From positions 1-58,085 of IMG/VR virus record IMGVR_UViG_3300043398_000262: 58,085 nucleotides of DNA; one strand, 5' to 3'. Made by a program: the position numbers and the translations under genes. This document shows, one piece after another, positions 1-51,434 of the stretch. This DNA is from a virus. Taxonomy: Duplodnaviria; Caudoviricetes. Every line of letters starts with the position of its first letter. Within the stretch, counting starts at the first letter, position 1. The notes under the pieces are model-generated. The model was not told the origin of the DNA. It searched no databases and saw only the letters and a list, made by a program, of their open reading frames with translations.

Positions 1-24
1 GATTGCGACCAGCAGCTCCAGGGT
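1..24. repeat. Left copy of 24-nt terminal direct repeat (circular overlap)
   Basis: gattgcgaccagcagctccagggt matches 58062-58085 (gattgcgtccagcagctccagggt) at 23/24 positions. Confidence 0.9.
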
Positions 25-3566: not shown

Positions 3567-4307
3567 TTAAGATTGAGCCGTCAACTTTTTCTTGGCGGCT
3601 TTAGTCTTAGCTATGGCTGCTACTCGCTTGGCTACATGCTCTGGATTTTGAGGACGTCCGACTAGTGACGCTACACGCTTCTTGGCAACATCTGGTGGAA
3701 CTATACGGCCTCTAGCCTTTGCGGCTATTTTTTCTCTGGTTTCGAGGCTGCGCTTGCTGCCTAAGTGCCTAGCCACTACTTTAGCTATCGTCTCAGGGGT
3801 TTGTTTGCGGCCAGTGCCTGCTGCAGCCAGTTTGGCTTTGTGTTCGGGCGAGAGCGGCCTGCCCTTGTTCACGGCAAGTGCGGCCGCTCTTACGTGCTCG
3901 GGTATTTTCTTTCCTTTGTTGGCGGCCTTGATTTTTGCTTTGGTTGCGTCGGACATGCGCCTACCTAAGGCCTTAGCAGACATTTTGGCAAGAATCTCGG
4001 GCGGGTGCACATATCCAGCGGACCCCTCGCCCCCGCCCGTGCGGTTGTAACCGTAAGGCGCTCTACATTCGAGTACGTAGATTGCGTGCATCTCTGCCTG
4101 AAATGCTTCCTGCTCTGAGATGTCTTTCGTTAGGAACCGAAGCTCGAACGCAGCTACGCCATGCTTGCGAATTGCGACACTTAGAATGGACTTCCTAAGA
4201 GCAGAATCTCTCAGGTGAGCGTAGGCTCGGTCTCCCTTGCCCTTGCCGACATACTGCTTTCCGTTAATTCTATTCGTCCAGCAGTAGACGTAGAAGCTAT
4301 TATCCAT
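3567..4307 (-). CDS. GIY-YIG homing endonuclease with NUMOD3 repeats
   Basis: YVYCWTNRINGKQYVG, GYNRTGGGEG, repeated S.ETxAKI/SPEHKAKL motifs. Confidence 0.9.
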   Translation of the reverse strand: MDNSFYVYCWTNRINGKQYVGKGKGDRAYAHLRDSALRKSILSVAIRKHGVAAFELRFLTKDISEQEAFQAEMHAIYVLECRAPYGYNRTGGGEGSAGYVHPPEILAKMSAKALGRRMSDATKAKIKAANKGKKIPEHVRAAALAVNKGRPLSPEHKAKLAAAGTGRKQTPETIAKVVARHLGSKRSLETREKIAAKARGRIVPPDVAKKRVASLVGRPQNPEHVAKRVAAIAKTKAAKKKLTAQS

Positions 4308-7131
4308 GGCGCTCTACCGTAGCCCACGAAAACTCCTTGTCCAACAGCTCTTGACGTTGCGCCGACAGACCTAGCCATAAATCGAAGGCTTCGCCGATTG
4401 GCGGGAAGGCAAGCTCAATCAACGGTTCTCCAGAGGCAATCAATACTTGAACATCATCTTTGGAGCGCCAAAACCACGCATACTCTAGTAGGGCAGACTG
4501 CGTCTCATTATCTTCCTGTGTGAACAGTTCGCTGATGTTATCCTGCGTCCAGGAACTTGGGGCAACATCCCCCTCAACCATCACTGAACAAGATTTGGTT
4601 CGCCTAGGCAGCCTAAGGCGCCCTTGGGCTTGCTCCAGCTCGTTTGCGGCACATTGCACCCATTCAATGTCAGCGGCTTCTCCCACCAGTCCCAGCTGAA
4701 ATAGCGTTGGCTTCAGCGCGAACCGTGGCGTGCCAAACATGTACGCAACCGAGCATTCAGTGGCGCTGCCTTGCTGCCACTGGTTCAGACCGCGCAACGC
4801 TCCGTAGTGTGCCACCTGGACTAATCCGCCACGCAGCCGTACCGGGTCGTTTCTTAGCGCTTCTGCGATAGCGCGGAACGTCACGAACAACACCCTGGGT
4901 GGGTCGTATTGCTGAGCTTCTTCTAGGGCTCGCTCCAACGCTGCATCGACCAACGGCCACGGTATCCCGATTGGCTCTCCTGGCTGCGCCTCGCGTCGCA
5001 CACGGCGGCCCGACGTCTCATCCCAGTAGCTGGTGGTCAGTGCCTTGGAGCCACGACCACCGCGCAGAATCATCACACGCTTGACAGGCGCGCCGTCGGT
5101 GACCGAACAGCTGCGTACAGCAAACCCAGGTAACGCAGCCATCATCGGCGTAGCCGACAGCAACACGCCTTTGCGGGCCACCAACTGCTCGTGACAGGCA
5201 TCAGGCATCATCGCCTGTAGTGGCGTGTGCCCGCGATGCTGTAGCCCTTCTACGGGCTCACCGTCGGCAATACGGGCACCCAGCCGCACAACAGCATCAG
5301 CAGCCCTCAGCAGCTCGGCTTCTGCTGCTGAAGGCCTGGAGTCCTCGCGGACTGACAAACGACGCCACTCACCAGCAAGTGCGATTGCGTTACCCAGCGG
5401 CGTTCCTTCGGGGCCCCAGACAATTTCTCCTGGTTCGGTACCGGTCGACCAGGCGCGTGCCAACTCGCGCACTACTTTGGCGATGGTGGCTGGCGCTGAC
5501 GGCAGCTCTGCCGTCACTAGTGCCTGCAGTTGGTTTGGCGTAACCTGAACTTGCTCATAGGTGCCTGGCATCTCGTCAACAATCAGCTCGATTCCCAAAC
5601 CCTTGTCTTTGCCATCAGCGTCCAGCCCGAACACCTGGTTGATGCCAGCGTGTGAGACAAAAATTACGTTGGCGCTAGCCAAGGAACGTTGGCGTTCTTT
5701 AGCAGCAGCGTAAGCTTCACATTCTTGCCTAAGCGGGCAGCGTGGGCAAATCTTACCCAACAGAGACACGCCGAACTCGAATACCTGCGATTTCAGTTCG
5801 TTGGCGCGGCCGCACACTGGCTCACTGCCGACTTGAATTAGCGGGCTATGCTGGTGCACAGAGCGTGCATAGACGTCTGGCGGCAGATACTGGCGTGTAT
5901 CGTGTGCGACTTCGTGCGTTTGCGTGCAGTAGGCAATCTTGTAGCCGGCTCTGGCGCGCTCTGTAAGAATTATGGCAGCGCTATGACTTTTTCCGACTCC
6001 AGCCGGGTAGTGTATGACAGTCGGCTCTCGGCTAAGAACTGCGTCTCGGATGTCGTCCACTAGCGACAATACGGCCTGGGAGACCGGTACCGACAGCTTG
6101 GGCGAAGCCTGGCGCTGAAGCTGCTCCTCTAGCCGAACCTGGAGCTCGCTGGGGGCACCAAATCGCCCTTGGTCGTCCAGACCCAACGCGGCCAAAATCT
6201 CGCCACGTCGGCAGCTGGCAAAGCATACGACATCGATACCGTTGCCGCTGGCTCGAACGCGAAAACTAGGGGATTTCTGAATACCGTCCGGAGCGCAAGC
6301 TGGACACGGCCCGCGGCGCCAGCCCTCAAAGGCTTCGGCACCCAGCGAGATGCCACGTTGATTGAACACCTTGGTGATGTCCCGTAGAGCTCCTACGGCT
6401 TCGGCCGTCGGCTGCTGATACGGGCGCTGACGTCGACTCGATACCTGGGCGGTAGTCGGGCGACGCAGGATTGCCTCGACATCCAGCGGCCTGCCTGGTC
6501 GAACGTCGAACACAGCCAAATGCGCGCGCTCTGGCGGTGTGCACGGTACGTACCAGCTCTGGGCTGGACGTGCGCTGGCCGGGTCAAATCCACGAGGCTT
6601 AGCCGCTCGCTCTATACCGCTGGCCGTCTCTACGAACCGGCCCAGTACTTCGGCGCGGTATTTTGGGTCATCAACCGGTACTTCGTGGCCGAACAGAGCG
6701 GGCACGAGCACTCGATATTCGTCTGGGGTAACCGGCTTGTCGAACGGTAAGCAGATGCGGTACGCGTCATAAGGGCCACGGGTCCCAGAGTCTGAGTGGG
6801 TTTTGTTTTCATCTCGGTGGCTCCAGCTCGAGTATACGATGAACGCGAGCCCCAAGCCGTCCATGTGGGCTACCGCTGCCTCCAAGTCGCCTATGTCAGC
6901 GCAATCCTTGTCTAGGACGGCCGCATGCAGACACTCCAAGCCAGCCAAGCCACGATTAGCCCCAATACGGTATTCGGCTGCGGCCCACAACTGAACGCTG
7001 TCCTTTGACGGCGCCACCAACTCAGGGAACACAGATTCGACGCCTTCTAGCGTCCAAGGGACGTCGAAAGAGCGGTCTACTTTGGACCCGTGTTTGCCCA
7101 ACGCTTGGAACAAAACGCCCTTGAAGCGCAA
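4300..7131 (-). CDS. AEP-type primase fused to SF2-like helicase
   Basis: N-terminal LDKD, YSSWSH, RICLP, FDPAS..PAQSWYVP; CPAC zinc finger; Walker A PAGVGKS, Walker B IVDE, LSATP, QAQGRLR. Confidence 0.8.
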   Translation of the reverse strand: MRFKGVLFQALGKHGSKVDRSFDVPWTLEGVESVFPELVAPSKDSVQLWAAAEYRIGANRGLAGLECLHAAVLDKDCADIGDLEAAVAHMDGLGLAFIVYSSWSHRDENKTHSDSGTRGPYDAYRICLPFDKPVTPDEYRVLVPALFGHEVPVDDPKYRAEVLGRFVETASGIERAAKPRGFDPASARPAQSWYVPCTPPERAHLAVFDVRPGRPLDVEAILRRPTTAQVSSRRQRPYQQPTAEAVGALRDITKVFNQRGISLGAEAFEGWRRGPCPACAPDGIQKSPSFRVRASGNGIDVVCFASCRRGEILAALGLDDQGRFGAPSELQVRLEEQLQRQASPKLSVPVSQAVLSLVDDIRDAVLSREPTVIHYPAGVGKSHSAAIILTERARAGYKIAYCTQTHEVAHDTRQYLPPDVYARSVHQHSPLIQVGSEPVCGRANELKSQVFEFGVSLLGKICPRCPLRQECEAYAAAKERQRSLASANVIFVSHAGINQVFGLDADGKDKGLGIELIVDEMPGTYEQVQVTPNQLQALVTAELPSAPATIAKVVRELARAWSTGTEPGEIVWGPEGTPLGNAIALAGEWRRLSVREDSRPSAAEAELLRAADAVVRLGARIADGEPVEGLQHRGHTPLQAMMPDACHEQLVARKGVLLSATPMMAALPGFAVRSCSVTDGAPVKRVMILRGGRGSKALTTSYWDETSGRRVRREAQPGEPIGIPWPLVDAALERALEEAQQYDPPRVLFVTFRAIAEALRNDPVRLRGGLVQVAHYGALRGLNQWQQGSATECSVAYMFGTPRFALKPTLFQLGLVGEAADIEWVQCAANELEQAQGRLRLPRRTKSCSVMVEGDVAPSSWTQDNISELFTQEDNETQSALLEYAWFWRSKDDVQVLIASGEPLIELAFPPIGEAFDLWLGLSAQRQELLDKEFSWATVERHG

Positions 7132-8467: not shown

Positions 8468-8676
8468 CCGGAGGCAAGCATGTGGCGGCGAATTGTTGTG
8501 TGGTTACTAGGACTGGTGGCTCCCAAGCGCGAACGTCGGCTGGCCGATATCGCGGCCACCAGGATTGCCGAACCGCCTCCGCTGACTCGCCCCGTGTACT
8601 TCAAGCCGGTCACTATTAGTGAGCTGAAGGAAGGGCTGTACTCCGGTGAAGAGAAATCCGGTGTGCATCGCAACAT

Positions 8677-9036
8677 GTGGAGGAAGCCGTGAGCAAGGAG
8701 CCCGTTCGATTATTGGGTGACCATCTGAAGAGCAATCCACGCCGCAAGCTCGGCCCCCAAAAGGCGACTCTGACTCAGTGCGCTAAGCACGGTCAATTCT
8801 TCCCACGTGATGAGCAATGCTGCTGGTGCGAGCCGCCAGTCCGTACCTTCAGGACTATGGGCGAGCGCTATTTTGACCACTGGTGGGCCAACGGCTGCTT
8901 TGGGTTGGTCAGCGACACATGGGAAGAGCTTAGCGCTGAAGAGCAGCTAAAGTGGAACCGCGACGCAATGAAGGTGATTGATGACACATTGCGGCAGCGC
9001 CTGCCTGCTCCCGATTGGGCGATGATGTACCCGTAA
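8677..9036 (+). CDS. Hypothetical Cys/His-rich protein
   Basis: CAKH...CCWC putative Zn ligands; likely start GTG 8689 overlapping the stop of 8462..8692. Confidence 0.5.
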   Translation: MEEAVSKEPVRLLGDHLKSNPRRKLGPQKATLTQCAKHGQFFPRDEQCCWCEPPVRTFRTMGERYFDHWWANGCFGLVSDTWEELSAEEQLKWNRDAMKVIDDTLRQRLPAPDWAMMYP

Positions 9037-9041
9037 GCCAG

Positions 9042-9767
9042 TTAGCGCTTTTGGAGCCAGCAATCCAAGAACGGCTGGTCCTTGGGCAGCGGCCCATACT
9101 GGCAGTTGACCTGGTTGCTGGCTGCTCCAGTGATGACAACACCGGCAAATGGCAGCTCGACTCGAGAGCAGAACGTTGCCCAAGTGTTGTACGAGCGCAC
9201 TGACGTCCAGAACCAGCCGACCTGCGCCAGCGGCCCTCCTAGGTCCTGTGAGCGCCATTGGCTGGGCACGTCATTCAGCTTCAACGAGCGCGGACACCCG
9301 ACGTCACGGTACTCCTGTCGGGTATTCACGCAGGTAGCGCCCCAGAAGTTGCTGTAGCATCGGAACGTATCCGTAGCTGGAAAGACGTACTTGTTCACCA
9401 ATGACATCTGACGTGGGTCGCGCGCTCGATACCAAGAGCCCCAGCTGAAGCGGTCCCACAGTCCTGTCACACCGATGTTATAAACCCACACGTCGTTGTA
9501 GCTTTCCCAGCCCAAATAGTGCTGAGGCGTCAGCTTCATAGACAGCGGCAGTAGTGCAAAATCTGCATCAGTAGGAATCGCCGTCGGCTCTGCTCGGCTG
9601 CCGTTCTGTTTGTCGGTAATAGCCGGCCCGGCGTCGATGATTGGCTCGCTGTCGTAAATGACTTCGTCCACCTGGTCGTTGTGCATGACGTCCGAATCAT
9701 AGTCGGCGCATGCTACTGAAATCATCATAGATATCGCCACTGCGATGTATTTGTACGTGTTGGTCAT
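9042..9767 (-). CDS. Putative lipoprotein with Cys-rich C-terminal domain
   Basis: Signal peptide ending in SVAC lipobox, acidic DAG linker, six further Cys. Confidence 0.7.
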   Translation of the reverse strand: MTNTYKYIAVAISMMISVACADYDSDVMHNDQVDEVIYDSEPIIDAGPAITDKQNGSRAEPTAIPTDADFALLPLSMKLTPQHYLGWESYNDVWVYNIGVTGLWDRFSWGSWYRARDPRQMSLVNKYVFPATDTFRCYSNFWGATCVNTRQEYRDVGCPRSLKLNDVPSQWRSQDLGGPLAQVGWFWTSVRSYNTWATFCSRVELPFAGVVITGAASNQVNCQYGPLPKDQPFLDCWLQKR

Positions 9768-10811: not shown

Positions 10812-11132
10812 TCAACTTGTCGACCTTGGTGTTTTGAGCGCTGTTACGACGCGTTCTTGGAACCAATCAGGCATCTGCTCCATCTGGTCAATACGGCTAT
10901 GGTGCCTGGAGGACAGCCGGTTAAGACGATGCTCGAACACCATGTTGTCGACGGCCTCTGCCATGTCCTCGCCAAACCCGACAGCCACCAGCCGACTGCG
11001 CTGATTGCCATCTGTGCGCATCAGAGCGGCGGATACGGTTTGCACGTACGCATTACCGTTGGGTCCGCGATGAACCTCGGTGCGGCGTACGATGCTGATA
11101 TGGAATGGCTTGAATCGTTTATGGCTGGGCAT
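10812..11132 (-). CDS. Hypothetical protein
   Basis: 106 aa with GGAG RBS. Confidence 0.5.
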   Translation of the reverse strand: MPSHKRFKPFHISIVRRTEVHRGPNGNAYVQTVSAALMRTDGNQRSRLVAVGFGEDMAEAVDNMVFEHRLNRLSSRHHSRIDQMEQMPDWFQERVVTALKTPRSTS

Positions 11133-11233: not shown

Positions 11234-11632
11234 ATGACCGACAGCACGAACAAGACAAATCCGAGTACGGCCATAAAGGCCCCACCAGGCCGTAGAACCG
11301 TCGACGTAGCCGCGTGGCTAGCGAAGCATGAGCTTCTAGAGGAGCATGGGTTGGACGACGAACAGCCCGCAGAAGCCATTCTGGGGTCATTGCCAGGCAT
11401 TCGCGAGCCTGGGGTTCGTACCGATGCCCAGCGCCCCATCAACGCCACGCGTTCTGCGTCCAAGCTGGCGCCCAACGATTACCAGAAGCGGTGCCGGGTA
11501 GCGATGGAGCGCGAGGAGCAGCGTTCGGTGGTTGGTCAGCGTGGCGTGCGCGCCATGCACACATTGGTCATGGATGGACCCGCAATGCCCACGATGGACG
11601 TACGTATGCGAGGAACGGAGTATAAGCAGTAG
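11234..11632 (+). CDS. Hypothetical protein
   Basis: 132 aa; TTGACG-19-TAGAAT-6-ATG upstream; converges on 11637 without overlap. Confidence 0.55.
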   Translation: MTDSTNKTNPSTAIKAPPGRRTVDVAAWLAKHELLEEHGLDDEQPAEAILGSLPGIREPGVRTDAQRPINATRSASKLAPNDYQKRCRVAMEREEQRSVVGQRGVRAMHTLVMDGPAMPTMDVRMRGTEYKQ

Positions 11633-11636
11633 CTGG

Positions 11637-13043
11637 CTACTTGGCCACGAACTTGGTTCGAACACCCAAAGCTGCGGCTTCGGCATCGACAGCAGCGCAC
11701 AGCTTGGACGCAAACGTGGTCAAGTCAGTCGGGTTTGATGAGCCGATGGTGATACCGTCGTGGCTGTGTATCGCGACATAGCCTAAGTCGCACACCAGCC
11801 GTGCTTCCTCGTAAGCACGCGCCATCAGCCGTAGCTCATATGTCGAGGCGATGAAGTGCGCCAACGTTGACGGGTTCATGTTGCCGAGCTGGGTCGGGAC
11901 GCCGTACGCATCCACCAGATGCCCCATGCGCTTGGCGCGCTGGGCGATGGCTTTACAGGTTGCTCGTAGTTCCTTGGCTAGCGGACTGCGGCTGATGGTC
12001 GAGGCCAGCTCAGACGGGACGTTGTTGGCGACCAATAGCTGAATCATCTTCTGTGCTCTGGCGCCATACATTTGGCTATAGACGGCTTCTTTCAACTGGT
12101 CTTTGTCCAAAGCCGTCCCAGCGTTCAGCAGCTTGATTACCTGGGGCCATACCGAACCATCTGTGGACTCTAGAACGATATCCAGCATGGGCGTCTCCAG
12201 CGCCAAGCGACGGCAGATGACCTGGTGAATTGCCAGATGAGCAGCTCGCAAGTCCAGGTCTACCCAGTCGGGGCGTAGAATGCGGCGCATGGCGCTGGGC
12301 ATTAGCTGCCAGCCTGTATTGGCGTCTCCTAGCCTGGAGGTGTGACGATTGGCAGCTGGGCTGTACCAGGGTAGTTGCCCGTCTTTGCAGGACTGTACCT
12401 GGGCCCCTAGACGCATCAGCGTGACGATGTTCGTATCGGAGTTGTCTGGGTATTGCTGTTCAGCCCAATCCTGAGCAGCGTCGATGTTGTGGGTTTCTAG
12501 GATGTAGTTGCTGGTCCGAGCATGGCGCTTGAAGTAATCCAGTATCCACTTCTGGTCTTGGATGAAGGTAGGTGTTCGTTCTGGCATGGCGTAATTGCCT
12601 CTGGGAAGACCAGTTTTGATATGGACGTCGGAATCGGCCTGAGACCAGCGGCGTCGTGACCTTAGTTTGTACGCAGAAGCCAACGATTTCAACGTGATTG
12701 CTCTGGTTTTGTTGCCGGAGTCGAATGGGCCGTTGAACTGGTAATCGAGCACCTGCTCGCCTTTGGCGGCTGCGTACTGCTGGAGCCAGTCAGCATTGTC
12801 CAGCGTCTGTTTCGCGTTGGCTTTGTGATGCCCCAGGCGACATTGGTTGATGACTTGGTAGGATACTGGGGCCGTTGGTTCACCATCTAGTCGTTCATCC
12901 TCCAGCCGGAAGTGGCCTCGTAGTGCGAAGCTCTCCAAGGCGGCGTAATCGTCGCTAGGGTTCTCGAGCAACAGCTCAGCTCGGACGTCTGGGGCAACAA
13001 ACATCCAATGTGGCTGAGCGGGCAACTTGTCTGGAGGTGACAT
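11637..13043 (-). CDS. Divergent family A polymerase-fold protein lacking an exonuclease domain
   Basis: Motif A WVDLDLRAAHLAI, motif B LKEAVYSQMYGA (K-x7-YG), motif C IHSHDGITI in the correct order in the C-terminal half; no ExoI-III motifs seen. Confidence 0.75.
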   Translation of the reverse strand: MSPPDKLPAQPHWMFVAPDVRAELLLENPSDDYAALESFALRGHFRLEDERLDGEPTAPVSYQVINQCRLGHHKANAKQTLDNADWLQQYAAAKGEQVLDYQFNGPFDSGNKTRAITLKSLASAYKLRSRRRWSQADSDVHIKTGLPRGNYAMPERTPTFIQDQKWILDYFKRHARTSNYILETHNIDAAQDWAEQQYPDNSDTNIVTLMRLGAQVQSCKDGQLPWYSPAANRHTSRLGDANTGWQLMPSAMRRILRPDWVDLDLRAAHLAIHQVICRRLALETPMLDIVLESTDGSVWPQVIKLLNAGTALDKDQLKEAVYSQMYGARAQKMIQLLVANNVPSELASTISRSPLAKELRATCKAIAQRAKRMGHLVDAYGVPTQLGNMNPSTLAHFIASTYELRLMARAYEEARLVCDLGYVAIHSHDGITIGSSNPTDLTTFASKLCAAVDAEAAALGVRTKFVAK

Positions 13044-13281
13044 TAGTCAGAAACTATAGCAGCACCTAGAGCTAGCCGTGGACAACTAAAGACGCCAAAG
13101 AACACTCTCTGAATAAGGCGGCCCCGCCAAGGCTACACACCTCATATAACTACGCGTACTTAGGTGGTCTGTAAACCTGAGTATTGAGAACGCATTCTCA
13201 TCGACTAATCTGTCGTCTTGTTCATCTAGACTACCTCAGCGCACCTCGGTTGCTTTCTACCTAAATTCACCCCTAGAAGAC

Positions 13282-13333
13282 TCTTAGTTCGCTTTTTCCT
13301 AACCGGTTCTTAGTTCGCTTTTTCCTAACCGGT
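13282..13333. repeat. Perfect 26-bp tandem duplication
   Basis: tcttagttcgctttttcctaaccggt at 13282-13307 and 13308-13333. Confidence 0.95.
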
Positions 13334-13686
13334 TCATAAGACGCCCCCTAGCGCGCAAGTGCAACAGTACCCTGGTGATGGCCGATAACGACGGCTTATC
13401 GCTCGCTAGGCTCGCGATGTTCGCTCCTACGGAGCTCACCACGGCTTCGCTACGCTCCAGCCGCTATCGGTGAGCTCGGGCGCCAGCCGACCCCATACCC
13501 CCCGGCCGCTGCCGGCTTTGAGCCGATATGAATACGGTTCCGAAAAATCTGTCTCTGCCGACTAGATGGCATATACTACCCATGCGTACATTACTTGTAC
13601 CGTAAATGCCCGTTGTCGCCGGCTAGCCAACGATGTGCAGATTTTGCACGTAGCCGCTGTAATGACGACTTGGCTCATCAGCGGAA

Positions 13687-13785
13687 CAACACCCCAATGG
13701 GGTGTTGGCCAGTTATATTTTCTTAGTGTGACACTTCTGTCACACCTGGACCTTAGCCTGCAGGCACTGTGACGCCGCTGTCACA
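13687..13785. promoter_or_regulatory. Palindrome cluster (putative operator/origin sites)
   Basis: caacacccca-a-tggggtgttg (13687-13707); gtgtgaca-cttc-tgtcacac (13726-13745); tgtgac-gccgct-gtcaca (13768-13785). Confidence 0.6.
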
Positions 13786-13823
13786 CCGGGCTAGGAGCCG
13801 TCCTGAACCGTCAACATGGCTGG

Positions 13824-21452: not shown

Positions 21453-22616
21453 ATGACGACTGAAGCAGCGGCACCAGCCGCAGAAGCCACTGAAGCGCCC
21501 CAGGCCAAGACGAGCACCGACGACGCAAAGCCCGCGAAGTCTGAGTCAAAGGAAGAGCGCAAGGCCGCTACCAAGAACAAGTTGCGTGAGTATCTGGCCA
21601 ACAAGGCAGCTGCCGAAGAGGCAGAAGCCGACGACTTCGGCAACGATGAACCGCCTGCAAAGCAGCCCTCCAAAAAGGAGCCAGCCAAGGCCAAAGCCGA
21701 AGCTAAGCCTACAGCAAAGACGACTGCCAAGGAAGAGTCCGCTCCTACCAAGGCTGCCGAGCGTGCCGAGGCCAAGGTAGACAAGATTGAAGAGTTGGGC
21801 GGTGATGCTCCCGACCAGAAAAAGAACGAATCGGACAGCCAGTACGACATTCGATTGGCCAAGACGCTGCGTGACTTGCGTGACGCCAAGGCCGAGGCCC
21901 TGAAGGCGACCAAGGAAGCCGCACAGTTCCAAGGCGAGGCCCGCAAGCTCCAAAAGATTCTGGACGAGGGCAAGGCCAACCCGCTGAAGGTTCTTGAGCA
22001 CCTAGGCATTACCTATGAGGACTTGACCAAGGGCATCGTAGAGGAAAAGTACAAGCCGGCACACAAGCGCAACGACTTGCCACCAGAGATTCTCGAAAAG
22101 ATTGAGCGGCTGGAAGCCAAGGAGAAGGAACGCGAAGCCGAGGCTGTTCGAGCTTCCGCCCAGGCCCAGCGGTCCCAGCACGTCAGCGCCGTACAGAAGT
22201 ACATCGATGACAATAGCGAGGACTACCCGCTCGCTGCTACGATGAAGTGGGTTGCCGAAGACGTTGTCGCACGCGGCTATGCCACTGGCGGCGAGTTTGA
22301 CGCGCTGCCGATTCTGCAGGAGCTGGAAAGCAACCTTGCGGCCAACGTCGGCACGTTGCTGGGGTCTGACAAGGCCACCAAGGCGCTGCTGAAGAAGAAT
22401 CCGGCGCTGAAAAAGGCACTAGAAGCCGCTATGGGGCTAGAGGCAGCAGCCAAGAAGCGTGAAGAGGAAGACGAAGAGCTGCCGATTTCGGTTGCTATGA
22501 CGTCAACCGAGGCGCCCACTAGGACTAAGTTGTCGCGGGCCGAAATGAAGGCGCGGCTAGCTGCTGACCTGAAGCGGCGCAATGCCGAGCAGCTGGACTC
22601 GGACGACGAGGACTAG
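21453..22616 (+). CDS. Capsid scaffolding protein
   Basis: Highly charged, A/E/K-rich coiled-coil protein between portal and capsid; GGAG RBS. Confidence 0.7.
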   Translation: MTTEAAAPAAEATEAPQAKTSTDDAKPAKSESKEERKAATKNKLREYLANKAAAEEAEADDFGNDEPPAKQPSKKEPAKAKAEAKPTAKTTAKEESAPTKAAERAEAKVDKIEELGGDAPDQKKNESDSQYDIRLAKTLRDLRDAKAEALKATKEAAQFQGEARKLQKILDEGKANPLKVLEHLGITYEDLTKGIVEEKYKPAHKRNDLPPEILEKIERLEAKEKEREAEAVRASAQAQRSQHVSAVQKYIDDNSEDYPLAATMKWVAEDVVARGYATGGEFDALPILQELESNLAANVGTLLGSDKATKALLKKNPALKKALEAAMGLEAAAKKREEEDEELPISVAMTSTEAPTRTKLSRAEMKARLAADLKRRNAEQLDSDDED

Positions 22617-23545
22617 AGCAGCCCACCTGTGCTGAAAACGTCCACGTCTCGGCTGTAGCGGGCTAGCATCGCAATCGACTTGTGCCCAGTGGTTTTCTGG
22701 ACGTCGATTACGCTGCGGCCCGCCTGTAGAGCAGCCGTGACCATGCCAGCTCGCAACGAGTGACCGCTGAAGCAGTCGACATCCAAGCCGACTGACAACG
22801 CTGCTCGCTTGACGATTCGGGCAATATCGCGCCCATCGATTCGGCTGCCGATGTTGCCGTGCCTGTCAATGCTGCGAAACAGCGGGCCGTAGCTAAGTCC
22901 GCTGACGCTCAGCCAGGCGTTGACTGCCGATACTGGGCACGTCTCGGGCGCCCCGAAACTGACGCCGATTTTGCGACCTTCGCCGGTTTGGTCAGTTTTC
23001 GACCTACGAACGGTAGTGACAATTCCTTGGGTTGTGAACTGCAAGTCCGACACGTCCAGGGCTGCCAACTCCGAGCGCCGGAACGCACCCGCCCACCCCA
23101 GCAGTAGGATGGCCCTGTCGCGGACGCTGGCGTGAGACACCATTGCCTTGAGCTGGTCTATGCTGATTGGCGATTTCTGGGTCTGGGCGGTTCCGTGGGT
23201 GCGCTTGACGCCCTTGAAGACTTCACGCACTACGTTGGCGCCTCTGGGAGACACGTAGCCGGCAATCTCGTGCATCTGGCTGATAGCTGCCAGTGCCTGG
23301 GCCAGGGTGGCGGGTTTGCGGCCCTCAGAGGCGCGAGCTGCCAGATACAATGCCACGGTCTCAGGAGCCGCCGGTAGCGGCACTAGATTCTGGGTGCAGC
23401 ACCAGTCGGCAAAGAATGCCCACTGCTTGCTGTACGCCAGCCGGGTGTTGCTGCTACGGGCTGCGGCTGCATAGGCGGCTGCTTGGCGTCCTACTAGCTC
23501 CAGATTCTCTAGAGTTGCTGCTGAGTGCTGGATGGCTTCGGTCAT
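22613..23545 (-). CDS. Tyrosine recombinase, Cre-like
   Basis: RDRAILLLGWAGAFRRSEL, RSKTDQ, GHSLRAG, TGHKS, RY: full R-K-H-R-H-Y set. Start moved to ATG 23545, behind TTGCGT-18-TACTCT. Confidence 0.9.
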   Translation of the reverse strand: MTEAIQHSAATLENLELVGRQAAAYAAAARSSNTRLAYSKQWAFFADWCCTQNLVPLPAAPETVALYLAARASEGRKPATLAQALAAISQMHEIAGYVSPRGANVVREVFKGVKRTHGTAQTQKSPISIDQLKAMVSHASVRDRAILLLGWAGAFRRSELAALDVSDLQFTTQGIVTTVRRSKTDQTGEGRKIGVSFGAPETCPVSAVNAWLSVSGLSYGPLFRSIDRHGNIGSRIDGRDIARIVKRAALSVGLDVDCFSGHSLRAGMVTAALQAGRSVIDVQKTTGHKSIAMLARYSRDVDVFSTGGLL

Positions 23546-23772
23546 ATACCCAGAGTACGTCCGGACCGTCAGCAGACGCAACTGCTAGTTTTATTTCTGC
23601 CGACTAACTGCAGGCGACGAGAGCAAGTCCTGGTAGGCCACTAGGGCAGTCAAGCGCAGCGAAACGCACACGAGCAAAGCAGTGAGCCCTATGCCTGGCA
23701 GGCGAGCAAAGAAGCGCCAGGGAGACACATCCCAAACGTTTCTACCTCTCAAAACTAGGACATAGACACACA

Positions 23773-27207: not shown

Positions 27208-27512
27208 TGGATACGCTGGCCGAGCTGCTTCGGCGCCTAAGCATGAGCCTGGCTGACTTGGCCGCGCTGGTGCAACGGGTCAACCAGAACGCCCTCACCA
27301 AGTACAACTTGGTTACCGTCACCATTCCAGCCGGTGAAACAACCGCTATGGCCTACCATGGCCTGGGGCACTCACACAACGGTGCGACCATTGTTGCCTG
27401 TAACGTACCGGTCACAGCTTGCGTTGACGTAGCGGAAGACAGCTTGCGCATTGAAGTGACGCTAGCTAGCGTGCAACTGGTTGACGTTACTCTGAAGGTT
27501 TTGGTGTTCTAA
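27207..27512 (+). CDS. Small tail-associated protein
   Basis: HGLG motif typical of small virion/tail proteins; coupled to neighbours. Confidence 0.5.
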   Translation: MDTLAELLRRLSMSLADLAALVQRVNQNALTKYNLVTVTIPAGETTAMAYHGLGHSHNGATIVACNVPVTACVDVAEDSLRIEVTLASVQLVDVTLKVLVF

Positions 27513-48397: not shown

Positions 48398-48901
48398 TTA
48401 TTTCGACTTCCTTTTGCGTGCCTGCTTGATTGTACGTGGCCTGCGGCGCGCCGTCACTGCCTTTTTGCGACCTGATTTGGCTTGGCGCTTCTCCATTTTG
48501 CGTTCGTGCGCCAGACGGTATTTCTCGGCTTCCTTGGGTGTGAGCTCCTGGAGCACTTCGACGGTGATACGCGTCCGTGGAGACGCCTTGTCATAGTGAC
48601 GAGTTGCCTCCATCTCGGTGACCATAACGTCGTCAAAGAAGGCGGCTCCGTTCAACCCATCGAGGGCCGCCTTGCAATAGTTATCCACGTCGCCAAATCT
48701 ACGCGAACCGCAGAAGAATGCCATCGTGACTCGATACACGGCAGCCATCGGCCAACCGTCTTCTCTAGCCTGGGAACACGCTTCGTTGATGCGCATCTCC
48801 TGGTCTATGGTCTTCTGTGGTGTGAATACACGTCCACCCCTACCTAGGCGTGGTCTCTGTTTGACTGCTGGCTCCCCAGCTACTACGAAGCTTAGTCTCA
48901 T
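48398..48901 (-). CDS. rusA: RusA-family Holliday junction resolvase
   Basis: GEP..KQRPR, DVDNYCKAALDGLNG..F.DD..V. Confidence 0.9.
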   Translation of the reverse strand: MRLSFVVAGEPAVKQRPRLGRGGRVFTPQKTIDQEMRINEACSQAREDGWPMAAVYRVTMAFFCGSRRFGDVDNYCKAALDGLNGAAFFDDVMVTEMEATRHYDKASPRTRITVEVLQELTPKEAEKYRLAHERKMEKRQAKSGRKKAVTARRRPRTIKQARKRKSK

Positions 48902-49530
48902 ACGCGGCCACCAACGATTTCATAGACACTGCTTGTCGACAACTCAACCCAGGACGCTACGTCAGCGACTGTGGCGCCTAGAGCTCGCAACATTCGCACC
49001 GTTTCAGCGTGTCTTGTCATCTTGTTGCGCTTCTGTCGTTTGCCAACGTCCCCCTGAATTTCGTTAGGGTTAGCAAAGCTGCCGTGCAAAGCTACAGCCG
49101 CCCTGTCGTAGGCTGCCGCTGCGTCCTCCTTTGTCGGGAAGTGCCCCAGCGCGTATTTGACCTTGTTGAATTGAATCTGGGCTATCCAGCTGTTGCACTT
49201 GGCGGACCAATGCACCCCTTTGATTCCTGACTTGCTGGACAGGTATGCAGGCTTGTTGCAATTGTTCCCTGTCCTATCACTGACGCGTAGATTCTCTCTG
49301 CGGTTGTCTAGGCCATCACCGTTGATGTGGTCAATTTCCACCTTGGGGTCAGTCACTCCTAGTACCACTCTGTGCAGTCTGGCAGGTTTCCCAAACATCC
49401 TGCCGCACATGGCGTATCGAGTTCGCATCCCGGGACGCGCCCAAGAGCACCAAGTGAAGTCTTTGACTTGCTCGAAAACGTCATCATCCACCAGGGCCAC
49501 ACGTCCGCAAGATAGCTTTAGCTCTTTCAC
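48898..49530 (-). CDS. HNH-AP2 homing endonuclease
   Basis: LHRVV...IDHINGDGLDNRRENLR, SGIKGV.W....WIAQI...LG.F...AA.AYD.AA..LHG.FA. Confidence 0.92.
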   Translation of the reverse strand: MKELKLSCGRVALVDDDVFEQVKDFTWCSWARPGMRTRYAMCGRMFGKPARLHRVVLGVTDPKVEIDHINGDGLDNRRENLRVSDRTGNNCNKPAYLSSKSGIKGVHWSAKCNSWIAQIQFNKVKYALGHFPTKEDAAAAYDRAAVALHGSFANPNEIQGDVGKRQKRNKMTRHAETVRMLRALGATVADVASWVELSTSSVYEIVGGRV

Positions 49531-51434
49531 TTTCTAAGCTCCCAAGGTATTAGCACCCCGTTCTCGTATACTGGGTCAGAAGCGGCTTTTGTCCAGCGCA
49601 ACATGGCTGATGGTTCTGCAGTCATCGGAACCTCCTTCACTACTGAATCCGCCCCAGAACAGAACAAATCTCGGATGTGGTGAGACTTTTCATGCAGACC
49701 CTCTAAAGGTACTTCTCCAAGCCATTCGTCGTGAAGCCACCCCTGCATACGGCAGCCGTAGACAGGAGATTCTGGGTCTGCATAGCAGGCATACATGACC
49801 TTTACGAAGCCTGCTTTGCCTGCGTCTGCAGCTAAACCCTGGAATAACGAGTTAGCGAATTCACAGTAGGACACGTCCCCCCGGACGCGTTGCGAGACGA
49901 AGTGCGTTACTTCCCCCCTAGCTCCACGCCTGCCTAGTTGGTCCGCGACCCACTCAAGGTACGGGGCTGCCTCTCTCCACTTCCTTTTCCAGGCCGCGAT
50001 TACTTCGGCTGCTCTGGCTTCGGTTATTTTGACTCCGTAGGTGGTAGCTGCGTACTCTATGAACGTCTTCTTACCCAACCCACCTGGCAGTCCGAAGCCG
50101 GCTGCCTTGGCTAGTTGCCGGAGTTCCTTGAACTTGGGCTTGTCCGTTTTCTTGAGTGCATACGCTTCATCGACGCTCAACCCATAAATCAACGCCCCCA
50201 GCTCGACGTGGGGGTCTCTGGCAGGGTCCTTCAGAACTTCTCCCAGGTCAGAAAAGTCAAAGAGCCACTTGCACACAGCTGCCCACGTTCTAAGCTCCGC
50301 TTGGTTGAAGTCGATACTCACAAAGGCGTACCCGGGTCGTGCCACGAAGCATTCGCGTACACCTTCGGCTCTCGGCGGATTCTGTATCTGGCATACATAC
50401 GCGCTATACGGCTGTCCAGGCTTCGGGTCATCGCCTTGGCGACATGACGTTCGGCCAGTAGCCACCAACGTGTTCATCGACGGTTGAATCAATGGGTGTT
50501 GAAGACGCTTGATTTTGCTTAGAAGAGTGTTTGCTTGCCCATAGCGGGTGTAGGCCGCCAGGATTTCATCCTCGGCTCCCAGACACGCCTCTTCGTCGAG
50601 CTTGACGTTCCCCGGCTTGCCGGCGGCCAGCATCTTCTCTGTTGGCTCTCCGCGTGGCTCAGACTTGCCCAGGCGCCTATAGGCGTCCACCAGCATCTGC
50701 TCAGCCTTGGCTTTGTCCTTAGAGCAAGAGCCGTCTGGCTTGAACTTCAGCAGTCCAGCTTGTGCCAGGACTTTGCGGTCCAGCTCAATCTCTGTCACTG
50801 TGGCGTCGTACAGCTTGCTTGCTGCGACTGGGTCTGTCCTGAGACCCCATGCACTAGACAGCGCCAGTGCTACGGCTGCCTCCACCTGTGGGTGCTCGTT
50901 GACGAACCAGCGGTCTCCCTGGGCTGCCTGGGCTCGCCACAGGTCGCGTACGGCGATATCCCCCTTGGCATAGTCGACTGCCTCTTGGGGCCATTGCTCG
51001 ACGTCCAGCCCATATAGAGAGCCAAACCGCACCCGCCAGGAGCACTGCTTGTCCAGCTTGATGGGGATACCGTGCGCCTCGAGGCAGTCATCCAGACCAA
51101 AGCCCTCACGCCGGTCGCCCTTGCCGATCCTCAGGAGCTTTTCGCGCAGCATCGTACAGCTGAAACCGCCTGCCTTCAACTTGGCGAACACCAACGGACG
51201 CCAGTCGACACTATGTGCCAGCATGGTCAGGATTTCGTAGGACGCGTTGTGGGCGACTATTTGTACCTGTGGGTCCTTGAGGGCCTCTGTCAACAGCTTG
51301 CCCAGACGTCCATCGCGTACGTGCCACAGCTCCGTGGGGGCATCGTCGATGGCGAACGACATGCACACCAACGGAGGAGCCTGTAGGCCAGGAGCTGTTA
51401 GAAACGTCTCAAAATCAACCCACAGCTTAGTCAT
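49527..51434 (-). CDS. polA: Family A DNA polymerase with 3'-5' exonuclease
   Basis: ExoI DFET, ExoII HNASYE, ExoIII YAKGD; TGRTS; motif A DFNQAELR; motif B RQLAKAAGFGLPGG; FQG.AAD; motif C HDE. Confidence 0.92.
   Translation of the reverse strand: MTKLWVDFETFLTAPGLQAPPLVCMSFAIDDAPTELWHVRDGRLGKLLTEALKDPQVQIVAHNASYEILTMLAHSVDWRPLVFAKLKAGGFSCTMLREKLLRIGKGDRREGFGLDDCLEAHGIPIKLDKQCSWRVRFGSLYGLDVEQWPQEAVDYAKGDIAVRDLWRAQAAQGDRWFVNEHPQVEAAVALALSSAWGLRTDPVAASKLYDATVTEIELDRKVLAQAGLLKFKPDGSCSKDKAKAEQMLVDAYRRLGKSEPRGEPTEKMLAAGKPGNVKLDEEACLGAEDEILAAYTRYGQANTLLSKIKRLQHPLIQPSMNTLVATGRTSCRQGDDPKPGQPYSAYVCQIQNPPRAEGVRECFVARPGYAFVSIDFNQAELRTWAAVCKWLFDFSDLGEVLKDPARDPHVELGALIYGLSVDEAYALKKTDKPKFKELRQLAKAAGFGLPGGLGKKTFIEYAATTYGVKITEARAAEVIAAWKRKWREAAPYLEWVADQLGRRGARGEVTHFVSQRVRGDVSYCEFANSLFQGLAADAGKAGFVKVMYACYADPESPVYGCRMQGWLHDEWLGEVPLEGLHEKSHHIRDLFCSGADSVVKEVPMTAEPSAMLRWTKAASDPVYENGVLIPWELRK

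What the first reader, a model, noticed from the sequence alone, without database searches (positions are those of the whole stretch)
11637..13043. Second, minimal family-A-fold polymerase with altered steric gate: best candidate for an undescribed system
Seen: the 468-aa protein has motifs A (DLRAAHL), B (KEAVYSQMYG) and C (HDG), no exonuclease domain and an unrecognised ~200-aa N-terminus. It has its own extended -10 promoter and abuts a repeat/hairpin-rich non-coding region. The genome already encodes a full PolA and an AEP primase. Established: in Pol I motif A (DYSQIE) the Glu is the steric gate excluding rNTPs; here that position is His. Superfamily A also includes T7/N4-type RNA polymerases and the TV-Pol primase-like family. 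Inference: an origin-specific primase/replication initiator (possibly for a plasmid-like prophage state, together with the Cre-like recombinase), a minimal RNA polymerase, or a template-specific polymerase acting on the adjacent structured DNA/RNA.
Basis: partly seen in the sequence, partly recalled or inferred. Interest (0 to 1): 0.85.

Follow-up and report, generated by a model that had tools for sequence, protein, structure and literature searches.

The report
Second, stripped-down TV-Pol phage polymerase
This phage gene encodes a real, probably active, miniature relative of DNA polymerase I without proofreading; it belongs to the 'TV-Pol' group that was predicted in 2008 to start DNA replication in mobile elements, so it is a new example of a known but never-assayed kind.

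Summary
The ORF at 11637-13043 (-) is real. Its AlphaFold2 model (pLDDT 89) matches Klenow, Taq and T7 DNA polymerases (Foldseek E about 1e-6). A HMMER search found 234 metagenomic cluster representatives. Among 150 aligned sequences the catalytic residues are almost invariant: hairpin Arg 148, motif A Asp 149, motif B Lys 149, motif C Asp 150. The Pol I steric-gate position is never Glu (Gln 96, His 44, Tyr 8, Gly 1), and motif C is HDG, not HDE. There is no exonuclease fold. The 155-residue N-terminal domain has no significant structural match.

This is not an undescribed system. Architecture, motifs, a profile match to the Microcystis phage Ma-LMM01 ORF and recombinase or transposase neighbours in relatives place it in the TV-Pol family (Iyer, Abhiman, Aravind 2008), which are predicted primase-polymerases. 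It is not CcPol-like, divPolA2-like or an evident RNA polymerase.

The link to a repeat-rich non-coding region holds only in the one syntenic relative, which carries 11 iteron-like repeats there. The other contexts lack it.

Earlier follow-ups in this scan reached the same family assignment on other genomes.

Verdict: a new member of a known, biochemically untested kind, most likely a replication-starting primase-polymerase. Interest 0.35.

The parts
11637..13043 (-). TV-Pol-type family A polymerase gene (468 aa plus stop)
   Evidence: ORF and translation. 234 relatives at E <= 1e-3. AF2 pLDDT 89.3. Foldseek best match Klenow, E 1.3e-6.
12579..13043 (-). N-terminal domain, residues 1-155. Mixed alpha/beta and conserved in length across the family. 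Function unknown; a winged-helix-like DNA-binding role is only a weak lead.
   Evidence: The segment before the hairpin Arg is 173-327 aa long, median about 235 aa, in 60 sequences; R114 is shared by 54 of 60. Domain model pLDDT 79.1. Foldseek PDB: 0 matches at E <= 0.001; best E 0.43 (4pql_B), followed by RepE54, ORC and Cdc6 winged helices at E about 1-4.
12378..12578 (-). Thumb, residues about 156-222: three helices (160-174, 184-197, 203-220)
   Evidence: DSSP on the model. Corresponds to the bi-helical thumb of the TV-Pol description (PMC2579912).
12333..12335 (-). Arg237 in the beta-hairpin before the palm (strands 227-229 and 238-240)
   Evidence: Arg in 148 of 150 aligned sequences; the other 2 are gaps. 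Strands.
12228..12254 (-). Motif A, D264-I272 (DLRAAHLAI). Catalytic Asp264. His269 sits at the Pol I steric-gate position.
   Evidence: Asp in 149 of 150. Gate column: Gln 96, His 44, Tyr 8, Gly 1, gap 1, Glu 0. Aligned to Taq motif A.
12063..12104 (-). Motif B / O-helix, K314-G327 (KDQLKEAVYSQMYG)
   Evidence: K318 in 149 of 150. K/R314 in 146 of 150. Y322 in 141 of 150. G327 in 144 of 150. Aligned to Taq motif B.
11754..11762 (-). Motif C, H428-D429-G430, at the turn between strands 422-427 and 430-434
   Evidence: Asp in 150 of 150. Gly in 149 of 150, where Pol I has Glu. Strands.
13053..13061 (-). Extended -10-like motif TGCTATAGT, 9 nt before the ATG, with no Shine-Dalgarno sequence. It would give a leaderless or nearly leaderless mRNA. 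Function untested.
   Evidence: Read directly. Not called by the consensus scan. L002 has TGCTACAAC 12 nt before its ATG.
13044..13823 (.). Non-coding strand-switch region between the polymerase gene and the rightward operon. Candidate control and/or origin region; its link to the polymerase is unproven.
   Evidence: No convincing ORF: the 13566-13772 ORF scores -0.031, and one run carries an 8-nt insertion inside it. Repeats.
13282..13333 (.). Perfect 2x26-nt tandem repeat
   Evidence: Contigs of two runs (X1 and X3) end or begin at it, and a separate 54-nt contig of X1 spans it.
13727..13785 (.). Two TGTGAC-N6-GTCACA palindromes, 41 nt apart, 39-97 nt before the start of the rightward gene at 13824. 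They look like operators of the rightward promoter.
   Evidence: 3 sites in the window against 0.08 expected. Their role is inferred.

Best explanation
The gene encodes a catalytically competent, proofreading-less family A polymerase of the TV-Pol (transposon-virus polymerase) family.

Architecture: a 155-residue N-terminal domain, a helical thumb, a beta-hairpin with an invariant Arg, and a palm with two invariant Asp that is interrupted by a fingers module carrying K/RxxxK...Y...[YF]G.

Proposed action: it is not the phage's bulk replicase, which is the ordinary PolA at 49527-51434. It most likely acts as a primase-polymerase. It would start DNA synthesis de novo on phage DNA, possibly at a site in the adjacent 780-nt non-coding region recognised by the N-terminal domain, then extend a short way and hand over to the replicative PolA.

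Shown: the fold, the motif conservation, the family membership and the absence of an exonuclease domain.

Inferred from the family's published prediction and from gene contexts: primase activity and a role in initiation.

Speculative: site-specific action on the neighbouring repeats, and any change in sugar selectivity from Gln/His/Tyr at the steric-gate position.
For: Fold.
- AF2 model pLDDT 89.3.
- Foldseek PDB best match Klenow at E 1.3e-6. All 50 listed matches are family A DNA polymerases.
- BFVD best matches are viral PolAs and unnamed proteins of about 500 aa.
- The family profile matches Taq at E 1.6e-5 across motifs A and B.

Selection on the active site, in 150 aligned sequences: Arg237 148, Asp264 149, Lys318 149, Glu403 150, Asp429 150, Gly430 149.

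TV-Pol membership.
- All four synapomorphies listed in PMC2579912 are present.
- The profile finds exactly one place in Microcystis phage Ma-LMM01: a 506-aa 'hypothetical protein' beside two transposase genes.
- hhalign against that ORF gives probability 83.9% and E 7.8e-6 over 172 columns spanning the hairpin Arg to QHDG. That ORF also has His at D+5.

Contexts like those published for TV-Pol.
- L002: an HTH gene (weak HTH_17 hit, E 0.0059) and a tyrosine integrase directly downstream.
- L006: a serine resolvase directly upstream, and AbiJ plus a tyrosine integrase downstream.
- Deinococcus plasmid: an HTH gene upstream and IS630 fragments 3.7 kb away.

Retention. The syntenic phage contig L002 keeps the gene at the same place at only 33% identity. 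Contigs of four other runs show no differences inside the gene where they cover it.

Origin-like neighbour.
- L002 has TTCAACAT 11 times in one orientation within 272 nt of its roughly 900-nt upstream non-coding region, and once elsewhere in 12.5 kb.
- The window has a 2x26-nt tandem repeat.
Against: - No biochemistry exists for any TV-Pol of this type. Bebel et al. 2020 say so (passage), and my searches found none.
- The only assayed relative, CcPol, needs an OB-fold partner to prime. No such partner was identified here.
- The window has no recombinase or D5-like helicase next to the gene. The nearest tyrosine recombinase is 9.6 kb away.
- The repeat-rich neighbour is not a family trait. No repeat arrays were found beside the gene in L006, the Deinococcus plasmid or Ma-LMM01. 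L010 has only one 12-nt pair. The prophage locus L011 was not scanned for repeats.
- The window lacks an iteron array like that of L002.
- The palindromes at 13727-13785 sit by the rightward promoter and look regulatory.
- The winged-helix resemblance of the N-terminal domain is not significant (best E 0.43).
- The identification of the Ma-LMM01 ORF as the paper's TV-Pol is my inference, because the paper's alignment and supplement were not visible to me.
Confidence: 0.6

Rival explanations
1. Selfish cargo. The gene is the replication gene of a small TV-Pol mobile element, or the remnant of one, that lodged in the phage. It serves that element, or nothing, rather than phage replication.
For: - Sporadic distribution. 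In 400 scored genomes of one bacterial class, only the centre genome had a true member. The 6 other matches are 900-1150-aa host Pol I-sized ORFs at E about 1e-6.
- The clusters looked up are tiny, 1-2 members in 10 of 10.
- Recombinases or transposases lie within about 4 kb in 4 of 6 informative contexts: L002, L006, Ma-LMM01 and the Deinococcus plasmid.
- In the Aquaspirillum MAG prophage the gene sits between a lysis amidase and tail and terminase genes, like an inserted moron.
- A mosaic breakpoint lies at 10840, downstream of the gene, in other runs.
Against: - The gene is kept at the same position in the syntenic relative L002 although the proteins have diverged to 33% identity.
- No recombinase, inverted repeats or target duplication were seen around it in the window.
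- No contig in four runs joins across it (table 5: none).
- The active site is under strong constraint. This is also expected for a live selfish element.
Confidence: 0.2
2. RNA polymerase. It is a minimal single-subunit DNA-dependent RNA polymerase for transcription of phage genes, or it makes RNA rather than DNA, because the steric-gate Glu is missing and motif C is HDG. From recall, T7-type RNA polymerases have HDS.
For: - No Glu at D+5 in 0 of 150 sequences, and Gly in place of the Pol I motif C Glu in 149 of 150.
- PMC2579912 proposes an ancestral primase, that is RNA polymerase, activity for TV-Pol-like enzymes.
- Yutin et al. raise the same idea for the unrelated divPolA2.
Against: - All 50 listed PDB fold matches are DNA polymerases, none an RNA polymerase.
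- The gate residues are bulky (Gln, His, Tyr), not Gly. From recall, Tyr and Phe act as steric gates in B- and Y-family polymerases and reverse transcriptases.
- No repeated promoter-like motif of 18 nt or more is spread over the genome.
- The protein has no counterpart of the large N-terminal and specificity modules of T7-type enzymes (size alone, inference).
Confidence: 0.1
3. Repair or specialised-template polymerase. It fills gaps, bypasses lesions or copies a particular structured DNA or RNA, for example the adjacent hairpin-rich region, without a role in initiation.
For: - It is exonuclease-less and small, like many low-fidelity polymerases.
- It is a second polymerase beside a complete PolA.
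- Yutin et al. suggest repair as one option for second divergent PolAs in phages.
Against: - No repair genes are linked to it in any of the contexts I looked at.
- The recombinase-linked contexts and the published contextual argument point to element replication.
- The adjacent structures are not conserved across the family.
Confidence: 0.1

Closest known systems
TV-Pol family (Iyer, Abhiman and Aravind 2008, Biol Direct 3:39, PMC2579912), the subset with an N-terminal globular domain that is linked to resolvases, integrases or transposases. Example: the 506-aa ORF BAF36121.1 of Microcystis phage Ma-LMM01.
   Same: - Minimal polymerase core: thumb helices, Arg hairpin, a palm with two Asp, fingers with K/RxxxK.
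- No nuclease domain.
- Length 400-600 aa.
- Carried by phages, prophages and plasmids, with recombinase or transposase neighbours in relatives.
- The Ma-LMM01 ORF shares His at D+5 and QHDG, and aligns at hhalign E 7.8e-6.
   Different: - In this window no recombinase or D5 helicase is adjacent.
- The paper predicts an all-helical N-terminal domain, whereas the model here is mixed alpha/beta.
- The N-terminal regions did not align with Ma-LMM01.
- The family-wide Gln/His/Tyr at the gate and Gly in motif C are not discussed in the text I read.
CcPol-MP / PolA-SSB primases of SCCmec and other Bacillota elements (Bebel et al. 2020, PMC7581432; Front Mol Biosci 2023, PMC10061031)
   Same: - An exonuclease-deficient family A polymerase on a mobile element.
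- It is the only assayed case showing that such an enzyme can prime de novo, and it does so with dNTPs.
   Different: - CcPol keeps the steric-gate Glu and the Phe of Pol I.
- It keeps part of the exonuclease domain.
- It is closest to the CHEAP PolA subfamily.
- It needs an OB-fold partner encoded next to it and a helicase in the same operon.
- None of these features was found here.
divPolA2 (Yutin et al. 2024, Virol J 21:200, PMC11348598; representative AUR84708 of Vibrio phage 1.063.O)
   Same: - A second, divergent, exonuclease-less PolA-like protein with an unknown N-terminal domain.
- Found in a phage that already has a replicative polymerase.
- Variable neighbourhood.
   Different: - No detectable sequence relationship: hhalign probability 0.3%, and the family profile finds nothing in that genome at E <= 1.
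- The model here has a helical thumb, which divPolA2 is said to lack.
Canonical phage or bacterial Pol I (PF00476), including the phage's own PolA at 49527-51434
   Same: Same fold and the same order of motifs A, B and C.
   Different: - No Pfam hit.
- No 3'-5' exonuclease domain.
- Gate Glu replaced by His.
- Motif C is HDG rather than HDE.
- The phage's own PolA has DFNQAE and HDE, and aligns to the family only at E 0.012.

Membership tests
TV-Pol (PMC2579912) | Thumb built on antiparallel helices N-terminal to the palm | tested here: met
   Predicted helices at 160-174, 184-197 and 203-220. This is a model, not a solved structure.
TV-Pol (PMC2579912) | [quoted passage not shown] | tested here: met
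   Strands 227-229 and 238-240. Arg237 in 148 of 150 sequences; 2 gaps.
TV-Pol (PMC2579912) | RRM-like palm with two conserved metal-binding Asp | tested here: met
   Asp264 in 149 of 150 and Asp429 in 150 of 150. They lie at a strand end and at a hairpin turn. I could not measure the Asp-Asp distance.
TV-Pol (PMC2579912) | Fingers inserted after the first palm strand, with an RxxxK motif | tested here: met
   K314xxxK318. Position 314 is Lys in 137 and Arg in 9 of 150. Lys318 in 149 of 150.
TV-Pol (PMC2579912) | Never fused or linked to nuclease domains | tested here: met
   No Pfam domain. The N-terminal domain has no exonuclease-like fold match. The nearest nuclease genes, the PD-(D/E)XK at 1891-2694 and the GIY-YIG at 3567-4307, are more than 7 kb away.
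TV-Pol (PMC2579912) | Sequence relationship to a named member | tested here: met
   Ma-LMM01 ORF beside transposases: profile E 0.003 for that genome; hhalign probability 83.9%, E 7.8e-6. That this ORF is the paper's member is inferred from the paper's text. Its alignment figure and supplement were not visible.
TV-Pol (PMC2579912) | Neighbourhood with a D5-like helicase, or with a resolvase, lambda-type integrase or transposase | tested here: inconclusive
   Not in the window: the nearest recombinase is at 22613-23581 and no D5-like helicase was found. Present in relatives L002, L006 and Ma-LMM01, and within 3.7 kb in the Deinococcus plasmid. Absent in the L011 prophage.
TV-Pol (PMC2579912) | N-terminal TV-PolN domain (predicted all-helical) | not testable with these tools
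   The TV-PolN alignment is in Additional file 1, and supplements are closed. The model here is mixed alpha/beta. The N-terminal regions did not align with the Ma-LMM01 ORF.
Canonical PolA (PF00476) | Reaches the Pfam gathering score | tested here: not met
   No Pfam family even at E <= 10. 6 of 60 relatives hit PF00476, best E 1.7e-5.
Canonical PolA (PF00476) | Steric-gate Glu at D+5 and HDE in motif C | tested here: not met
   His269 and H-D-G430 here. Family: Glu in 0 of 150 at the gate, Gly in 149 of 150 in motif C.
CcPol-MP / PolA-SSB primase | Remnant of the 3'-5' exonuclease domain, and the gate Glu kept | tested here: not met
   No exonuclease-like fold. The gate is His. CcPol keeps E and F (passage).
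CcPol-MP / PolA-SSB primase | OB-fold partner gene and helicase in the same operon | not tested
   The ORF beyond the gene's 3' end (11234-11632, +) is convergent and has no Pfam or PHROG hit. I folded no neighbour.
divPolA2 (PMC11348598) | Sequence relationship to the representative AUR84708 | tested here: not met
   hhalign probability 0.3%, E 0.19. The profile gives no match in MG592441.
T7-like single-subunit RNA polymerase | Closest structural relatives are RNA polymerases | tested here: not met
   None among the 50 listed PDB matches. I could not see the matches below rank 50.

The most novel reading that the evidence does not exclude
TV-Pols of this type would be one-protein origin-specific initiators. 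The N-terminal domain would bind direct repeats beside the gene, such as the 11 TTCAACAT copies in L002 or the 26-nt tandem repeat here. The polymerase core would then prime there without a separate Rep protein, helicase-linked primase or OB-fold partner. The family-wide Gln/His/Tyr gate and the Gly in motif C would relax sugar selection for the first nucleotides. That would be a third route to replication initiation in phages, merging initiator and primase in a family A polymerase.
Probability: 0.15. Interest if true: 0.75.

Novelty: new member of a known kind. Interest (0 to 1): 0.35.

Why it matters
Primases are known from two families, DnaG and AEP, with few exceptions. TV-Pols were predicted in 2008 to be a further class, and the only assayed relative (CcPol) is an atypical one. 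This window adds:
- a well-modelled, clearly constrained member that sits beside a regular PolA in a phage;
- a family-level statistic, with no steric-gate Glu in 150 of 150 sequences and Gly for the motif C Glu in 149 of 150, which gives a simple, testable question about sugar selectivity;
- one syntenic pair in which the gene sits next to a large non-coding region, iteron-rich in one of the two, which gives concrete DNA substrates for a priming and binding assay.

The family has no Pfam, NCBIfam, PHROG-function or PADLOC model hit, and it is labelled 'hypothetical protein' in the two annotated records I saw. An HMM for it would improve phage annotation.

Tried and rejected
Searches with the single protein that gave nothing useful:
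- Pfam, no hit.
- PHROGs, only E 0.018 to a family of unknown function.
- PDB sequences, best E 0.14 and irrelevant.
- tblastn against phages, no match.
- Word-index protein search, which found only the window's own copy. With the alignment it found 3 proteins, none named.
- NCBIfam and PADLOC on 60 members, no consistent family.
- Atlas look-up of the N-terminal part, best score 0.84, which is below the lead level.

Other blanks:
- Rfam and tRNA scans of the window found nothing.
- tblastn of relative P0013 against phages found nothing.
- Single-protein locus scans with P0019 and P0023 in viral contigs found nothing.
- Cluster look-up gave no names.

Rejected hypotheses:
- divPolA2 membership.
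- Recent paralogy with the phage's own PolA.
- Orthology of the window's recombinase with the L002 integrase, BLASTP E 0.13.
- A dedicated-promoter set for a phage RNA polymerase, because no multi-copy motif was found. This is weak evidence only.

Further points:
- GC skew turns near 10-11 kb, but it follows the coding strand, so I did not use it as origin evidence.
- Sequencing runs: no RNA holder was listed, so nothing can be said about expression. Parts of the stretch without contig cover in X4 and X5 are not evidence of absence.
This is not proof of absence.
- The script mis-indexed the columns because I used --trim. Its numbers are void, and repeats it correctly.
- Alignment A1 holds the query plus 59 of the first 73 hits. 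I left out the window's own copy P0002 and 13 shorter or partial hits (P0005, 12, 20, 22, 31, 47, 51, 55, 59, 61, 65, 69, 72).
- One search uses the query plus 149 of the 150 listed hits (P0002 dropped), out of 234 hits in all.
Full report
OBSERVATION. The window is an IMG/VR virus record of 58,085 bases. The ORF 11637-13043 on the minus strand gives a 468-aa protein. Its codon usage resembles that of the long phage genes (0.213 bits per codon). The ATG at 13043 is the likely start because conservation with relatives begins before Met14. The public gene call starts at Met14.

FOLD AND FAMILY.
- The single sequence hits nothing in Pfam, NCBIfam or PDB sequences.
- An exhaustive HMMER search of 1.84 billion cluster representatives gave 234 proteins at E <= 1e-3, 14 at <= 1e-10 and 5 at <= 1e-30 (one of the five is the window's own copy). 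The median length of the 150 sequences used is 472 aa.
- A profile of 60 of them matches Taq and Klenow-type Pol I at E 1.6e-5. Motif A aligns on motif A and motif B on motif B.
- 6 of 60 members weakly hit PF00476.
- With that alignment AlphaFold2 gives pLDDT 89.3 and pTM 0.80.
- Foldseek against the PDB gives 153 matches at E <= 0.001. The 50 listed are Pol I, T7 DNA polymerase, Pol theta, Pol nu and apicoplast polymerase, with Klenow 1kfd best at E 1.3e-6 and TM about 0.44 over some 340 columns.
- Against predicted viral structures, the best matches are viral PolAs and unnamed proteins of about 500 aa.
- In the model Asp264 ends a beta-strand, and His-Asp-Gly 428-430 sits at the turn of a beta-hairpin. 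This is the canonical palm layout. I could not measure distances.

MOTIF STATISTICS. I aligned the query and 149 listed hits to the family HMM (one search was mis-indexed and is void). Counts out of 150:
- Hairpin Arg237: 148 (2 gaps).
- Asp264: 149.
- Lys318: 149.
- Tyr322: 141.
- Phe or Tyr at 326: 145.
- Gly327: 144.
- Glu403: 150.
- Asp429: 150.
- Gly430: 149.
- The position aligned with the Pol I steric-gate Glu: Gln 96, His 44, Tyr 8, Gly 1, gap 1, and never Glu.

The enzyme is therefore under strong constraint. The phage's own PolA (49527-51434) has the ordinary DFNQAE and HDE. It aligns to the family only at E 0.012, so the two are not recent paralogues.

N-TERMINAL PART.
- The roughly 235 residues before the hairpin Arg are conserved in length across the family.
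- Residues about 156-222 are three helices, the thumb.
- Residues 1-155 form a mixed alpha/beta domain. Modelled alone it reaches pLDDT 79.1.
- It has no significant PDB match: 0 at E <= 0.001. The best is E 0.43, to an entry titled 'N-terminal domain of DNA binding protein'. Then come RepE54, ORC and Cdc6 winged-helix domains at E 1-4.
- It is not an exonuclease remnant. A winged-helix, initiator-like DNA-binding role is only a lead.

WHAT IS KNOWN. I read the whole main text of Iyer, Abhiman and Aravind 2008 (PMC2579912), but not its supplement.
- It defines the TV-Pol family by four features: a bi-helical thumb, a hairpin with an invariant Arg, a palm with two Asp, and fingers with RxxxK.
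- It adds the absence of nuclease domains and a length of 400-600 residues.
- It describes two contexts: fusion or linkage to D5-like helicases, or an extra N-terminal domain together with resolvase, lambda-type integrase or transposase genes.
- It names cyanophage Ma-LMM01 as a carrier.

All four structural features are met here.

The family profile finds exactly one place in the 162-kb Ma-LMM01 genome. It is a 506-aa 'hypothetical protein' next to two transposase genes. hhalign gives probability 83.9% and E 7.8e-6 over 172 columns, from the hairpin Arg through motif A to QHDG. That protein also has His at D+5. That this ORF is the member meant in the paper is my inference.

Other known kinds fit worse.
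- CcPol. I saw passages of PMC7581432, and the introduction and part of the results of PMC10061031. It keeps the gate Glu and a piece of the exonuclease domain, and it needs an OB-fold partner. By passages of PMC10201439 it is closest to the CHEAP PolAs.
- divPolA2. I read section 13 of PMC11348598. It shows no detectable relationship.

1. The window. The gene is the first gene left of a 780-nt strand-switch region. The next recombinase is 9.6 kb away.
2. L002, a viral contig syntenic with the window over the capsid, portal and neighbouring genes.
   - The protein is 33% identical and sits in the same position.
   - About 900 nt of non-coding DNA lie upstream.
   - An HTH gene and a tyrosine integrase lie directly downstream.
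3. L006, another viral contig. A serine resolvase lies directly upstream, and AbiJ and a tyrosine integrase downstream.
4. A Deinococcus megaplasmid. The gene is annotated 'hypothetical protein', with an HTH gene upstream and IS630 fragments 3.7 kb away.
5. Ma-LMM01, next to transposases.
6. A prophage in an Aquaspirillum MAG. The gene lies between a lysis amidase and tail and terminase genes, with no recombinase among the ORFs scanned.
7. A 2.3-kb contig, too short to judge.

In 400 scored genomes of that MAG's class, only the MAG itself had a true member. The six other matches are Pol I-sized ORFs. The family is thus rare and sporadic, as expected of mobile-element genes.

THE NON-CODING NEIGHBOUR. 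Region 13044-13823 contains:
- a perfect 2x26-nt tandem repeat at 13282-13333;
- a 10-1-10 palindrome at 13687-13707;
- two TGTGAC-N6-GTCACA palindromes at 13727 and 13768. The window has 3 such sites (the third at 27399, one mismatch) against 0.08 expected.

The palindromes lie just before the rightward gene at 13824 and look like operators. One run carries an 8-nt insertion inside the only ORF of the region, which supports its being non-coding.

L002 has TTCAACAT 11 times in one orientation within 9089-9360, in pairs 10-11 nt apart, and once elsewhere in 12.5 kb. That is an iteron-like array. It lies next to the divergent gene, not next to the polymerase gene, and the window has no equivalent.

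No repeat arrays flank the gene in L006, the Deinococcus plasmid or Ma-LMM01. L011 was not scanned for repeats.

The motif TGCTATAGT lies 9 nt before the ATG, without a Shine-Dalgarno sequence. L002 has TGCTACAAC 12 nt before its ATG. The consensus scan called neither a promoter nor a terminator there.

OTHER SAMPLES. The stretch occurs in freshwater and other aquatic metagenome runs of several studies. Contigs of four runs show no differences inside the polymerase gene where they cover it, and no joint that skips it. They do show a mosaic breakpoint at 10840. No RNA holder was listed, so expression is unknown.

MECHANISM. My preferred reading is a TV-Pol primase-polymerase that starts DNA synthesis for the phage or its episomal or integrated form and hands over to the regular PolA.
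- Shown: the fold, the constraint on the active site, the membership and the lack of proofreading.
- Inferred from the published contextual argument and from the contexts I saw: priming and a role in initiation.
- Speculative: action at the neighbouring repeats through the N-terminal domain, and altered sugar selectivity.

Gln, His and Tyr are bulky. From recall, aromatic residues are the steric gates of B- and Y-family polymerases and reverse transcriptases, and T7 RNA polymerase has Gly at the equivalent place. So the loss of Glu does not by itself predict rNTP use.

Rivals are a selfish-element cargo gene (0.2), a true RNA polymerase (0.1) and a repair or special-template polymerase (0.1).

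NOVELTY. This is a new member of a known kind. Bebel et al. state that no other TV-Pol had been characterised biochemically (passage). My three literature searches found no later assay. Other follow-ups in this scan reached the same family assignment on other genomes. I arrived at it independently before reading them.

LIMITS.
- Only 7 contexts were examined.
- Membership rests on one named member and on features read from a predicted structure.
- The supplement of the 2008 paper was not available.
- The host is unknown.

Noticed in passing
window 1-24 and 58062-58085: The first 24 bases recur at the very end with one mismatch. The contig may therefore be a circular or terminally redundant, essentially complete genome of about 58.06 kb, although it is classed 'linear' with CheckV completeness 32%.
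   Followed up: no
window 13727-13744, 13768-13785 and 27399-27416: TGTGAC-N6-GTCACA palindromes: two perfect copies 41 nt apart just upstream of the rightward operon, and a one-mismatch copy before the 1065-aa gene at 27513. That is 3 sites against 0.08 expected. They are probably operators of a dimeric regulator.
   Followed up: partly
L002 9089-9360: Iteron-like array. TTCAACAT occurs 11 times in one orientation, in pairs 10-11 nt apart with three pairs at 46-nt spacing. It lies directly upstream of a divergent zinc-ribbon/coiled-coil gene (8596-9096, -) and 640-900 nt upstream of the TV-Pol gene.
   Followed up: partly
window 10840: Contigs of two runs (X1, X3) break or diverge exactly here, with alternative flanking sequence. 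One X1 contig carries 14 substitutions clustered in 10893-11013. This is a mosaic or recombination boundary between strains, downstream of the polymerase gene.
   Followed up: no
window 22613-23581 versus L002 about 1366-1715: The tyrosine recombinase between the scaffold-like and capsid genes looks like an insertion relative to the syntenic L002. L002 has only about 350 nt there and instead carries an unrelated integrase next to its TV-Pol gene.
   Followed up: partly
window 48898-49530 and 53695-54201: Two HNH endonuclease genes share an 88-nt, 70%-identical segment (49253-49340 and 53915-54002). One abuts the PolA gene. A GIY-YIG/NUMOD3 endonuclease lies at 3567-4307. These are likely homing endonucleases in the replication module.
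   Followed up: no
window 4300-7131 (-): A 943-aa ORF with no Pfam hit at E <= 0.01 (only IstB_IS21 at E 0.25), no PHROG hit and nothing relevant in PDB sequences (best E 0.44). It has a weak P-loop-like hint at residues 372-406.
   Followed up: partly
L006 12019-13251 (-): An AbiJ N-terminal-domain protein (E 3.9e-43) sits between the TV-Pol gene and a tyrosine integrase in this viral contig, with a serine resolvase on the other side. The TV-Pol gene lies in a recombinase and defence hotspot there.
   Followed up: no
BFVD match A0A7M3UP97 (Pyramimonas orientalis virus, 1019 aa): A 'replication origin-binding protein domain-containing protein' of a giant virus is among the best structural matches (rank 10, E 2.4e-6). 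It may be a TV-Pol-helicase fusion of the kind described for virophages.
   Followed up: no
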